Assembly: GCF_003334255.1 (NCBI RefSeq)
Contig: NZ_QOWU01000008.1
Strand: one strand, 5' to 3'
Length of the DNA: 64,000 bases
Source of the DNA: Escherichia coli
Lineage (GTDB): Bacteria; Pseudomonadota; Gammaproteobacteria; Enterobacterales; Enterobacteriaceae
Part shown: in pieces, positions 53,101-56,100 of the stretch
Layout: each line of letters opens with the position of its first letter
How positions within the stretch are numbered: the stretch's first letter is position 1
Position numbers: made by a program

Positions 53101-56100
53101 AGGCTTTGGCGAATTTCTCGCGGTTAGCCGGATCTTTCACGTACTGGTATCCCGGATACGTATCCGGCAGCGCGCCCATATCGCAGGCACCCTGAACGTT
53201 GTTCTGACCACGAACCGGGTTAACACCCGCATGCGGCTTACCGAGGTTACCGGTCAGCATCGCGAGGCTGGTCAGAGAACGCACGGTTTCCACGCCCTGG
53301 TAGAACTGGGTTACACCCATGCCCCACAGGATGGCGGCGCTTTTCGCCTGGGCATACATCCGTGCCGCCTGACGAATCTCACTGGCGCTGACGCCGGTGA
53401 TATCTTCAACCGACTCCGGCGTGTAGCCTTCAACGATTTTACGATACTCTTCAAAGCCTTCTGTACGTGAAGCGACGAACGCTTTGTCGTACAGATTTTC
53501 TTCAATAATGACATGGCCCATCGCATTCAACAGCGCGATGTTCGAGCCGTTTTTCAGTGCAATGTGCATGTCAGCAATGCGCGCGGTTTCAATTTTGCGC
53601 GGATCGCAGACGATAATTTTCGCCCCGTTACGTTTAGCGTTAATTACGTGATTCGCCACGATTGGGTGGGAATCCGCCGGGTTGTACCCGAAAACGAACA
53701 CTAAATCGGTATTATCAATTTCGTTAATAGCATTGCTCATTGCGCCATTACCGACCGATTGGTGCAGACCTGCAACCGATGGGCCGTGTCAGACACGAGC
53801 GCAGCAGTCAACGTTATTGGTACCAATAACGGCGCGCGCAAATTTTTGCATTACATAGTTGGTTTCGTTACCCGTACCACGCGAGGAGCCGGTCGTCTGG
53901 ATGGCATCCGGACCGTACTTCTCTTTGATGGCGCTCAGGCGCTCGGCAACGTAATTCAGTGCCTCATCCCAGGAAACAGGTTCGAGTTTGCCGCCACGCT
54001 GGCGACGGATCATGGGGGTTTTCAGGCGCGGGGTCAGGATCTGGGTATCGTTAATGAAGTCCCAGCCATAATAACCCTTCAGACACAGGGTACCCTGGTT
54101 GGTTTTCCCCTGCGCTGCCTCCGCCCGGACGATTTTGCCGTTATCGACGACCAGGTTGATTTTGCAACCTGATGCGCAATAGGGGCAAACCGTGACGACT
54201 TTTTTCATCGGTCTCGCTCCAGTTAATCAAATCACGCATACGCGCTCTCGACTACAGTATGCATCTTTTATGCCACATTTTATGTGGGGTCATTCCCTGA
54301 TATTACGGGCACTATTTATTCAAAACTCTGACGAAAAACAGGCTGTCGTCAGTTTTGACGTGACGAAACGAAATACCGCGTGACAGCCATCACGCGGCAG
54401 ACATTTTATTTTTTCTCGACGACGGGACCTGCCTGATACCCGCCGCCCAGCGATTTCATCAACTGAATGCTTTGGATCACCCGGCGGCTGTCCAGCATCA
54501 GTAATGACATCTCTTCGGCAAGCACTGGCAACCGGGCTTCGGTGGCCTGTAAGCGGCTGGTTAAGCCGCGCTGATAGGCGGCCTCGGCAGCGCGCTGGGT
54601 AAAGCGCGTGGCTTCCACGCGTTCAGCCTGCATTTCTCGCTCGTCGTTGAGCGTTTGCAGACGCGTGCCGTTGACGGCAACGTCACGCACCGCGTTCAGT
54701 ACTGACTGGTTGTAACGTTCAATCATCATGTTGCTGGCGGCGCGCGTGCCTTCGAGATTGGCATTCAACCGTCCACCGTCAAACAGCGGCAATTTCAGAC
54801 CCGGGATGAAGTTGAACTGGCGACTGGTTTTTTTGAATAAGGTATGCAGATGGATGGAGTCCAGACCGAAAAACGCTTTGATATCAAAGCTCGGATAGAA
54901 CAACGCCCGCGCGGAATCCACCTGATCTAATGACGCCTGAACATACCAGCGCATGGCTTGCAGATCCGGGCGTCTGGCGAGCAACTCATAAGAGAGTGTC
55001 GCCGGAATGCCGGTCTGGACTTGCGGTAATGCCACCGGTCTGATCTCCGGCATATCGCTGGCTCCCGCGCCAATCAATGCACGCAGAGATTCTCGCGTTT
55101 CGGTGATTTGCCCTTTGACGGCAACAATTTGTTTATCGACCGCCAGAATCTGTGCCCGCGCGCCGTGGAAAGGCACTTGCGCTTCCAGACCGTGCGCCAC
55201 TTTACTCTGGTGCGCTTTCACCGCGTAATCAATCACATCGTGAGTTTGTTCTAACAGATCGAGCATCTGATAGCTGGCCTGCATACTGTAATAAAGCTGC
55301 GCTACGCCCGTGGCCAGCGATAGCTCTACTGCTGCGGTTTCTGCCAGCGCGGCATTATGCGCGCCAATGGCGGCGGCAACCGCTGAGCGATGCACACCCC
55401 ACAAATCAAGATCCAGTCCGGCAAACAAACCTACTGTGGCTTCCGTATAGTACGGCCCGTCCATACCCAGTGCTGGCGCATCCATTGAATAAGGGCTTAA
55501 AAAGCCGTTCGCCGAGACACGTTGGCGGTTGAGCATCCCTAACGCTGCGACCTGTAATTGTGAACCGGCATCTAACAAATCGGCCTGGGACTGCGCTTTT
55601 TCTTCCCGCAGTTTCGCTTCGGCGAGGGTGTGTGAACCACTTAGCGTCCGTTGGATCAGCGCATCCAGCTGCGGGTCATTGAGTTGTTTCCACCACTGCG
55701 CCTGCGGCCAGCCGGAGCTGGCAAGATGAATATCGTCGGCCAGTTTGATTTGTTCCGGTTTGAGCTGTTGATGAGGTGCAGAATCCTTACGTACCAGGGC
55801 ACAGCCGGAAATCAGCGTCGTGCTGCCGAGAATGCTGCACAACAGCAGACGTGAAAGTTGACGATTGATCATTGCGTGGCTCCTTGTGCCTGTTCCGTGG
55901 CGGGCGTTAATGCCGGGGCTGTCCAGTCTGGCAAGCGGGCGAAAAGCTGGCAGACGTGTTGCTCCTGTTTTAATAAGGTGGGCAGGATGGCCTGAGAGGC
56001 GGGTGTCTCTTCAAGCGTTATTTGAGGAGAACGGCTGAGTGCGGTTGCCAGACCGGCAGCGTATTTCTCCAGGGCGTCGGCAAACTGACCTGCTCTGTCC

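What the first reader, a model, noticed from the sequence alone, without database searches (positions are those of the whole stretch)
53740..53791. In-frame UGA recoded as selenocysteine in fdhF, with downstream hairpin
The minus-strand ORFs 53789..54208 and 52061..53740 share a frame and are separated by a single TGA (plus-strand tca at 53789..53791); the 48 nt between TGA and the next ATG encode HGPSVAGLHQSVGNGA without stops. Formate dehydrogenase H is known to use Sec at this position, and the sequence 3' of the UGA forms the stem-loop needed for SelB recruitment. A naive gene caller would split or truncate this gene.
Basis: partly seen in the sequence, partly recalled or inferred. Interest (0 to 1): 0.4.

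Follow-up and report, generated by a model that had tools for sequence, protein, structure and literature searches.

The report
E. coli fdhF selenocysteine UGA and SECIS

Summary
Both the observation and the interpretation are correct. The window is E. coli K-12, 100% identical to MG1655. On the minus strand, ORFs 53789..54208 and 52061..53740 share one frame and are separated by a single TGA (53791..53789). Read through, they give the 715-aa FdhF protein, which matches PDB 1aa6/1fdo/2iv2 over its full length; those chains carry a non-standard residue at position 140. RefSeq already annotates one CDS across the TGA. The 55 nt around the UGA match Rfam SECIS_2 over the full model (87.1 bits, gathering score 70). 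They show every literature-defined feature: a 17-nt minihelix starting 11 nt after the UGA, a bulged U17, and G23/U24 in a GGUC loop.

The hairpin is not unusually stable (z from -0.5 to -1.3 against shuffles), so folding energy alone cannot distinguish it from chance. I therefore ran an independent test on 120 fdhF loci from other species, anchored only on sequence upstream of the UGA. Synonymous variation collapses over the minihelix (0.54 vs 1.31 bits, p = 1e-4). The GGUC loop and U17 are invariant. Two stem pairs change in a compensatory way.

Verdict: already known, low interest.

The parts
52061..54208 (-). Complete fdhF coding sequence (715 codons plus TAA), encoding formate dehydrogenase H, with an in-frame UGA at codon 140
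   Evidence: Single-frame translation with one internal stop. 100% identical to MG1655, where RefSeq annotates one CDS of the same length. Full-length match to PDB 1aa6_A. TIGR01591 equivalog at 1089 bits.
53789..53791 (-). UGA codon 140, recoded as selenocysteine (the Mo-ligating active-site residue)
   Evidence: Sequence. PDB FDH-H chains have a non-standard residue at 140, and homologues have Cys or a non-standard residue in the same column. TGA is present in all 120 cross-species loci with the frame continuing (the TGA itself was part of the search pattern). 'Sec140' in PMC4513850.
53752..53791 (-). Classical 40-nt fdhF SECIS (nt 1-40 counted from the U of UGA): lower stem plus apical minihelix
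   Evidence: MFE fold. Literature definition of a 40-nt element (PMC8659212). 89% of cells paired across species against 23-47% in the slid controls.
53742..53796 (-). Extent of the Rfam SECIS_2 (RF01988) match, including a basal helix that pairs 5 nt upstream of the UGA with nt 46-50
   Evidence: 87.1 bits against gathering 70, model positions 1-55 of 55, E = 1.4e-19. The basal helix is 96.7% paired across species, with CG/UG/UA variation.
53761..53777 (-). 17-nt apical minihelix GGUUGCAGGUCUGCACC (nt 15-31), the SelB-binding part. Bulged U17 = 53775. Loop GGUC = 53767-53770, with G23 = 53769 and U24 = 53768.
   Evidence: Sequence and fold. Defining features from PMC8659212. U17, G23, U24 and the GGUC loop are present in 37 of 37 distinct elements from other species, and the five lowest synonymous-entropy windows all lie within codons 144-153.
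52026..52047 (-). Intrinsic terminator-like hairpin (9 bp, 6 GC, T-run) 14 nt after the fdhF stop codon
   Evidence: Terminator scan and sequence.
54260..54275 (-). Sigma-54-type -24/-12 element TGGCAT-N5-ATGCA, 52 nt upstream of the fdhF ATG
   Evidence: The only match to TGGCAY-N5-WTGCW in the 64-kb window, but 0.52 matches are expected by chance, so the pattern alone is not significant. No sigma-70-like site in the region. That fdhF is sigma-54/FhlA-dependent is established knowledge and was not tested here.

Best explanation
The feature is the selenocysteine recoding site of E. coli fdhF. The mechanism below is taken from the literature for this same sequence. While the ribosome translates fdhF mRNA, the hairpin immediately 3' of UGA-140 (the SECIS) presents its apical minihelix, with a GGUC loop containing G23/U24 and a bulged U17. 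The C-terminal winged-helix domains of the specialised elongation factor SelB bind that minihelix. SelB-GTP carries Sec-tRNA(Sec), whose anticodon is UCA. The minihelix starts 11 nt after the UGA, so when the UGA reaches the A site the lower stem has been unwound in the mRNA channel and the tethered SelB complex sits at the A site. There it delivers selenocysteine in preference to termination by RF2. The product is one 715-aa polypeptide in which Sec140 ligates the molybdenum of the bis-MGD cofactor. Ribosomes that fail to insert Sec terminate and release a 139-aa fragment. Shown here: the single frame, the UGA, the identity of the protein, the SECIS model match, the presence and cross-species conservation of the SelB-recognition features, and selection on synonymous sites. 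Taken from the literature and not tested here: SelB binding, Sec insertion, and its efficiency of about 30-40%.
For: One frame with a single internal TGA. 100% identity to MG1655 fdhF, annotated as one CDS. Full-length match to the solved FDH-H structures, which have a non-standard residue at 140. TIGR01591 above its cutoff. Rfam SECIS_2 at 87.1 bits against 70, full length. The minihelix at nt 15-31, U17, G23 and U24 match the published definition. In 120 loci from other species retrieved with a pattern that constrains nothing 3' of codon 142, the frame continues for about 575 codons wherever the contig allows, with three exceptions. Mean codon entropy of 4/6-fold codons is 0.54 bits in the SECIS against 1.31 in the flanks (Mann-Whitney p = 9.5e-5), and the five lowest 6-codon windows all lie within codons 144-153. 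Ala146 is GCA in 106/106, Gly147 GGT in 114/114, Leu148 CTG in 113/114. The structure is 89% paired against 23-47% in slid controls, with 22 doubly changed cells against 6.9 +/- 2.0 in shuffles, and compensatory changes at pair 15-31 (GC to UA, 8 distinct sequences) and pair 18-29 (UA to AU/CG/GC, 9 distinct sequences). Experimental recoding with this exact fdhF fragment (codons 130-179, Sec140) is about 30-40% in vivo and about 40% in vitro (PMC4513850). SelB WH3/4 domains bind the fdhF SECIS RNA in vivo (PMC7590224).
Against: None of substance. The hairpin's folding energy is not distinguishable from shuffled sequence (z from -0.47 to -1.29). RNAalifold did not recover the hairpin from the 115-sequence alignment. 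Several orthologous elements do not fold into the minihelix as their MFE structure. The Rfam model was probably built from sequences that include this one, so that match is partly circular. The cross-species alignment is dominated by close relatives (94% mean column identity), so compensatory events are few. The trans-acting genes (selA, selB, selC, selD) are not in the window: no tRNA gene was found and no sel gene is annotated in the 50 kb examined, window 14001-64000.
Confidence: 0.99

Rival explanations
1. The TGA is an inactivating nonsense mutation and fdhF is a pseudogene in this strain.
For: Mechanical ORF calling gives two pieces.
Against: The 161-nt stretch around the TGA is present in 5,420 of 5,426 complete E. 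coli genomes, at 99% identity or more in 5,416 of 5,421 records. The TGA is followed by an intact frame of about 575 codons in orthologues from many genera. The protein has been crystallised as one 715-residue chain.
Confidence: 0.003
2. Two separate genes: a 139-aa N-terminal Fe-S protein ending at the TGA, and a 559-aa protein initiated at ATG 53740.
For: An ATG lies 48 nt after the TGA. Termination at the UGA does release a truncated product on the ribosomes that fail to insert Sec (PMC4513850).
Against: The 16 intervening codons (HGPSVAGLHQSVGNGA) are highly conserved at the protein level across species and align with homologous residues of Cys-containing formate dehydrogenases. The TIGR01591 profile and PDB 1aa6 span the junction without a break. 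The sequence before the ATG (GGUAAUGGCGCA) has no good Shine-Dalgarno match (read).
Confidence: 0.003
3. The UGA is read through by a near-cognate standard tRNA (Trp or Cys) independently of SelB and the hairpin.
For: SECIS-independent UGA read-through of about 5-8% is measurable in reporter constructs (PMC4513850).
Against: This would not explain the selection on synonymous sites or the invariant GGUC loop and U17 across species. The solved structures contain a non-standard residue at 140, not Trp or Cys. SECIS-dependent recoding is five- to eight-fold higher than the background.
Confidence: 0.004

Closest known systems
E. coli fdhF SECIS (Rfam RF01988, SECIS_2), the prototype bacterial selenocysteine insertion sequence
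   Same: It is this element. The window sequence matches the model consensus over all 55 positions, differing only at the one compensated basal pair. It carries the published 17-nt minihelix, U17 bulge, G23/U24 loop and 11-nt spacing.
   Different: Nothing differs in sequence. Only the drawn register differs: the MFE and Rfam structures bulge U18 and pair U17-A29, whereas the literature bulges U17. The cross-species data favour the literature register, with 2 rather than 10 distinct sequences unpaired at that pair.
Formate dehydrogenase H, FdhF (PDB 1aa6/1fdo/1fdi/2iv2/7z0t; NCBIfam TIGR01591)
   Same: Full-length match, residues 1-715 to 1-715, including the non-standard residue at position 140. 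TIGR01591 at 1089 bits.
   Different: Nothing.
Cys-containing homologues, e.g. Thermoanaerobacter HDCR FdhF (7qv7_S), methanogen Fdh (7bkb_D) and NAD-dependent FDH alpha subunit (9wxb_B)
   Same: Same fold family and the same local motif, nnvD-x-CAR-[VLI]-[Sec/Cys]-H-[gs]-P-[st].
   Different: They encode Cys with a sense codon at the equivalent column and so need no recoding element. I did not examine their DNA.
SECIS_3 (RF01989) and other bacterial SECIS families
   Same: UGA followed within about 11 nt by a hairpin with a G-rich apical loop. A weak cross-match of 35.8 bits.
   Different: Below that family's gathering score of 63. The stem sequence and spacing differ.

Membership tests
Bacterial SECIS, fdhF type (Rfam RF01988 SECIS_2) | Covariance-model score at or above the curated gathering threshold over the full model | tested here: met
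   87.1 bits against 70, positions 1-55 of 55, E = 1.4e-19. Also found in the whole-window scan. The seed alignment probably contains this sequence, so the test is partly circular.
Bacterial SECIS, fdhF type (Rfam RF01988 SECIS_2) | In-frame UGA inside an otherwise open reading frame, immediately 5' of the hairpin | tested here: met
   One internal stop in 715 codons, and the hairpin begins within the next codons.
Bacterial SECIS, fdhF type (Rfam RF01988 SECIS_2) | 17-nt apical minihelix at nt 15-31, i.e. starting 11 nt after the UGA | tested here: met
   GGUUGCAGGUCUGCACC at 53777..53761. Definition from PMC8659212.
Bacterial SECIS, fdhF type (Rfam RF01988 SECIS_2) | Bulged U17 and G23/U24 in the apical loop (the SelB contacts) | tested here: met
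   Present in the window, and in 37 of 37 distinct elements from other species.
Bacterial SECIS, fdhF type (Rfam RF01988 SECIS_2) | Evolutionary constraint on the RNA beyond the protein code (suppressed synonymous change, compensatory pairs) | tested here: met
   Entropy 0.54 against 1.31 bits, p = 9.5e-5. Pairs 15-31 and 18-29 are compensatory, and 22 doubly changed cells compare with 6.9 +/- 2.0 in shuffles. RNAalifold on its own did not recover the hairpin.
Bacterial SECIS, fdhF type (Rfam RF01988 SECIS_2) | Hairpin markedly more stable than expected for its composition | tested here: not met
z from -0.47 to -1.29, with 25-60 of 200 shuffles folding as well. This is not a defining feature of the family in the literature.
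Bacterial SECIS, fdhF type (Rfam RF01988 SECIS_2) | Binding by SelB and SelB/selC/selA/selD-dependent Sec insertion | not testable with these tools
   Documented experimentally for this exact sequence (PMC4513850; PMC7590224). The sel genes are not in the window.
Formate dehydrogenase H / FdhF (TIGR01591; Mo-bisPGD oxidoreductase) | Equivalog HMM score above the curated cutoff | tested here: met
   1089 bits against 666.25, profile positions 1-672 of 672.
Formate dehydrogenase H / FdhF (TIGR01591; Mo-bisPGD oxidoreductase) | Sec or Cys metal ligand followed by the conserved His (U/C-H), aligned with solved FDH structures | tested here: met
   UGA-140 and His141 align with the non-standard residue and His in 1aa6 and 9t1s, and with C-H in 7qv7, 7bkb and 9wxb.
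Formate dehydrogenase H / FdhF (TIGR01591; Mo-bisPGD oxidoreductase) | N-terminal Cys cluster for the [4Fe-4S] centre | tested here: met
   CPYCASGC...C (Cys8, Cys11, Cys15, Cys42) read from the translation. Identical to the crystallised protein.
Formate dehydrogenase H / FdhF (TIGR01591; Mo-bisPGD oxidoreductase) | Sigma-54 / FhlA-dependent promoter upstream | tested here: inconclusive
   TGGCAT-N5-ATGCA at 54275..54260 is the only match in the window, but 0.52 matches are expected by chance. No sigma-70-like site was found. The FhlA upstream activating sequence was not tested.

The most novel reading that the evidence does not exclude
Nothing new about the recoding site itself is left open. 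The most novel reading not excluded is that the 139-aa N-terminal Fe-S fragment has a function of its own. It would be released on the roughly 60% of ribosomes that terminate at UGA-140, so the UGA/SECIS would act as a selenium-responsive switch between two products rather than only as a Sec codon. I have no evidence for this. A second, smaller point is that the basal helix pairing 5 nt upstream of the UGA with nt 46-50 (96.7% paired across species) might contribute to efficiency beyond the classical 40-nt element.
Probability: 0.03. Interest if true: 0.3.

Novelty: already known. Interest (0 to 1): 0.05.

Why it matters
This site is where bacterial selenocysteine recoding and the SECIS were first worked out, so it adds nothing new biologically. 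It is useful as a positive control. It shows that the first-stage reader can recognise programmed recoding from raw sequence. It also shows that the obvious computational check, 'is there a stable hairpin?', would not have discriminated the real element from chance. The checks that did work were the covariance-model match, the specific loop, bulge and spacing features, and suppression of synonymous variation across orthologues. The same approach can be applied to candidate recoding sites that are not already known.

Tried and rejected
(1) Thermodynamic significance of the hairpin. I folded 17-, 40-, 48-, 54-, 55- and 131-nt extents. z-scores were -0.47 to -1.29 for the element and -1.98 for the 131-nt context, so this test is not discriminating.

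(2) Within-species covariation. The 161 nt around the UGA are 99% identical or more in 5,416 of 5,421 E. coli records, which gives no usable variation.

(3) RNAalifold on the 115-sequence alignment. It returned a weak alternative structure (-4.69 kcal/mol) and not the SECIS hairpin. I therefore scored the named structure with the count of structure pairs instead.

(4) MFE folding of divergent orthologous elements. The apical GGUC(U) hairpin is recovered in Sulfurovum, L092 and L109, but not as the MFE structure in a Pasteurellaceae element (L017) or a Syntrophobacterales element (L080). None is more stable than its shuffles.

(6) The primary paper defining the minimal SECIS (Liu et al. 1998, PMC147357) is not held. 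Its content is cited second-hand through PMC8659212.

(7) I considered and rejected the pseudogene, two-gene and plain read-through explanations (see rival explanations).

Full report
**1. The observation**

Reading the minus strand from 54400 to 51900 shows an ATG at 54208 and a TGA at 53791..53789. Next come 48 nt, CAC GGC CCA TCG GTT GCA GGT CTG CAC CAA TCG GTC GGT AAT GGC GCA, then an ATG at 53740, and a TAA at 52063..52061.

Translating 54208..52061 in one frame gives 715 codons plus the terminal stop. The single internal stop is at codon 140, followed by HGPSVAGLHQSVGNGA-M.... There is no frameshift.

**2. What the locus is**

A 2.5-kb query around the site is 100% identical to E. coli K-12 MG1655 and to many other E. 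coli chromosomes. It is found in 5,420 of 5,426 complete E. coli genomes. RefSeq annotates a single fdhF CDS of 2,148 nt across the TGA, flanked by yjcO and mdtP. Some records name it 'formate dehydrogenase H subunit alpha, selenocysteine-containing'.

The read-through protein matches the solved FDH-H chains (1aa6, 1fdi, 1fdo, 2iv2, 7z0t) over residues 1-715. It scores 1089 bits against the NCBIfam equivalog TIGR01591, whose cutoff is 666. In a residue-level alignment the PDB chain carries a non-standard residue exactly at position 140. Homologues carry Cys in the same column (7qv7_S, 7bkb_D, 9wxb_B) or another non-standard residue (9t1s_L), always followed by His.

**3. The RNA element**

An Rfam scan of 500 nt around the site gives a full-length match to SECIS_2 (RF01988) at 53742..53796 on the minus strand: 87.1 bits against a gathering score of 70, E = 1.4e-19. 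It also gives a sub-threshold cross-match to SECIS_3. The SECIS_2 hit is also recovered in the whole-window gathering scan.

Numbering from the U of UGA as 1 (window position = 53792 - n), the sequence shows the following:
- the 17-nt minihelix GGUUGCAGGUCUGCACC at nt 15-31 (53777..53761), starting 11 nt after the UGA;
- U17 at 53775;
- an apical loop GGUC, with G23 at 53769 and U24 at 53768.

These are the features a review gives as defining the E. coli fdhF SECIS and its SelB contacts (PMC8659212, citing Liu et al. 1998 and Fourmy et al. 2002).

**4. Is the hairpin more than chance?**

MFE folding does give the hairpin (-13.1 kcal/mol for the 40 nt, -19.7 for the 55 nt). However, 25-60 of 200 dinucleotide-preserving shuffles fold at least as well, with z from -0.47 to -1.29. 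The Rfam model probably contains this very sequence in its seed, so that match is partly circular. Within E. coli the region is almost invariant and offers no test.

I therefore scanned one genome per species with a degenerate pattern anchored on the coding sequence upstream of the UGA: V-D-x-C-A-R-x-UGA-H-G. The pattern constrains nothing 3' of codon 142. They come mostly from Enterobacterales and Pasteurellaceae, with a few from Sulfurovum, Syntrophobacterales and other MAGs. In all of them the TGA is embedded in an fdhF-like frame. Wherever the contig allows, about 575 codons follow, with three exceptions.

Across the 114 loci with enough flank:
- The mean codon entropy of conserved 4/6-fold degenerate codons is 0.54 bits in codons 141-156, against 1.35 upstream and 1.28 downstream.
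- Pooling the flanks gives 1.31 bits, with Mann-Whitney p = 9.5e-5.
- The five lowest 6-codon windows in the 111 codons examined all lie within codons 144-153.
- Ala146 is GCA in 106/106, Gly147 is GGT in 114/114, Leu148 is CTG in 113/114 and His149 is CAC in 95/95.
- U17, G23, U24 and the GGUC loop are present in all 37 distinct elements.

Scoring the named structure on the 115-sequence alignment (A1) gives 88-89% of cells paired, against 23-48% when the 3' partners are slid by 1-3 columns. With the literature register (U17 bulged, 18-29 paired) there are 22 doubly changed cells, against 6.9 +/- 2.0 in shuffles. Pair 15-31 changes GC to UA in 8 distinct sequences. Pair 18-29 changes UA to AU, CG or GC in 9 distinct sequences, with only 2 unpaired. 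The MFE/Rfam register (17-29 paired) leaves 10 unpaired. The comparative data therefore support the hairpin and mildly favour the U17-bulged drawing.

The limits of this test:
- The alignment is dominated by close relatives, with 94% mean column identity.
- RNAalifold did not recover the hairpin on its own.
- Several divergent elements do not give the minihelix as their MFE structure, although Sulfurovum forms UAGUC-GGUCU-GACUA and L092 forms a U-bulged 7-bp stem around GGUC.

The strongest independent signal is the synonymous-site constraint together with the invariant loop and bulge, not stability.

**5. Mechanism**

The steps are taken from the literature for this same sequence. SelB-GTP carrying Sec-tRNA(Sec) binds the apical part of the SECIS. 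As the ribosome approaches, the lower stem unwinds. The tethered complex then decodes the UGA and largely pre-empts RF2. Recoding efficiency is about 30-40% in vivo and about 40% in vitro with an fdhF fragment covering codons 130-179, compared with 5-8% SECIS-independent read-through. Ribosomes that fail are terminated by RF2 (PMC4513850). The SelB WH3/4 domains bind the fdhF SECIS RNA in vivo (PMC7590224). None of this can be tested with sequence tools. The trans-acting genes are not in the window: no tRNA gene was found and no sel gene appears in the annotated 50 kb.

**6. Surroundings**

A 9-bp GC-rich hairpin followed by a T-run lies at 52047..52026 (minus strand), 14 nt after the stop codon, and is the likely terminator.

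Upstream, TGGCAT-N5-ATGCA at 54275..54260 (minus strand) fits a sigma-54 -24/-12 element. It is the only match in the window, but 0.52 are expected by chance. No sigma-70-like promoter was found in the region. Sigma-54/FhlA control of fdhF is established knowledge and was not tested here.

**7. Rival explanations**

A pseudogene, two separate genes, or plain near-cognate read-through are each contradicted by four things: the conservation of the TGA with its downstream frame, the conserved 16 codons between the TGA and the next ATG, the single-chain crystal structure with a non-standard residue at 140, and the RNA-level constraint.

**8. Verdict**

This is the prototype bacterial selenocysteine recoding site, already known and already correctly annotated. 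Interest is low. The one methodological point is that hairpin stability would not have discriminated it, whereas the model match, the specific motifs and the synonymous-site suppression do.

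Noticed in passing
window 50864-51273 (+); also 40258-40328 (+) and 140-210 (+): Four tandem matches to Rfam naRNA4 (RF02564, a REP-type element), spaced about 113 nt apart in the gltP-yjcO intergenic region just downstream of yjcO/fdhF, plus two single copies elsewhere.
   Followed up: no
window 32880-33020 (-): Full-length match to the Hfq-binding sRNA sraL (RF01408, 153 bits).
   Followed up: no
window 54374-54399 (-): An 11-bp terminator-like hairpin directly after the mdtP stop codon. It lies inside the fdhF upstream region, where the FhlA activating sequence is expected, so the mdtP terminator and the fdhF upstream control region may overlap.
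   Followed up: no
L019/L020, L040/L041, L057/L058, L068/L069, L073/L074, L043/L075: Several Enterobacterales genomes (Pluralibacter gergoviae, Cedecea neteri, Klebsiella oxytoca, Silvania, Kluyvera, Leclercia) carry two fdhF paralogues, both with the in-frame TGA and an E. coli-like SECIS.
   Followed up: partly
L040, L099, L074: In these three loci the frame after the TGA closes early (64, 95 and 291 codons instead of about 575) without reaching the contig end. They may be decaying fdhF copies or assembly errors.
   Followed up: no
L051 and L052: A record titled 'Pseudomonas stutzeri NCTC11607' carries an fdhF segment of the Pasteurellaceae type (HGPSVTGLLKSVGNG...). A MAG titled 'Desulfovibrio desulfuricans' carries a gammaproteobacterial-type segment on a 3.8-kb contig. 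Possible causes are mislabelling, contamination or horizontal transfer.
   Followed up: no
window 51278-51967 (-), yjcO: The gene next to fdhF is annotated 'Sel1 family TPR-like repeat protein'. To my knowledge that name refers to a repeat family and has nothing to do with selenium, so it should not be read as part of the selenocysteine system.
   Followed up: no
window about 15274-16259: RefSeq marks a DUF2713-domain gene here as a frameshifted pseudogene in MG1655 (coordinates converted from the record).
   Followed up: no
alignment A1, columns 22-23 and 34 (window 53774-53775 and 53763): The Rfam SECIS_2 consensus structure and the MFE fold bulge U18 and pair U17-A29. The cross-species changes (U18-A29 to A-U, C-G or G-C) fit the published U17-bulged register better.
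   Followed up: yes
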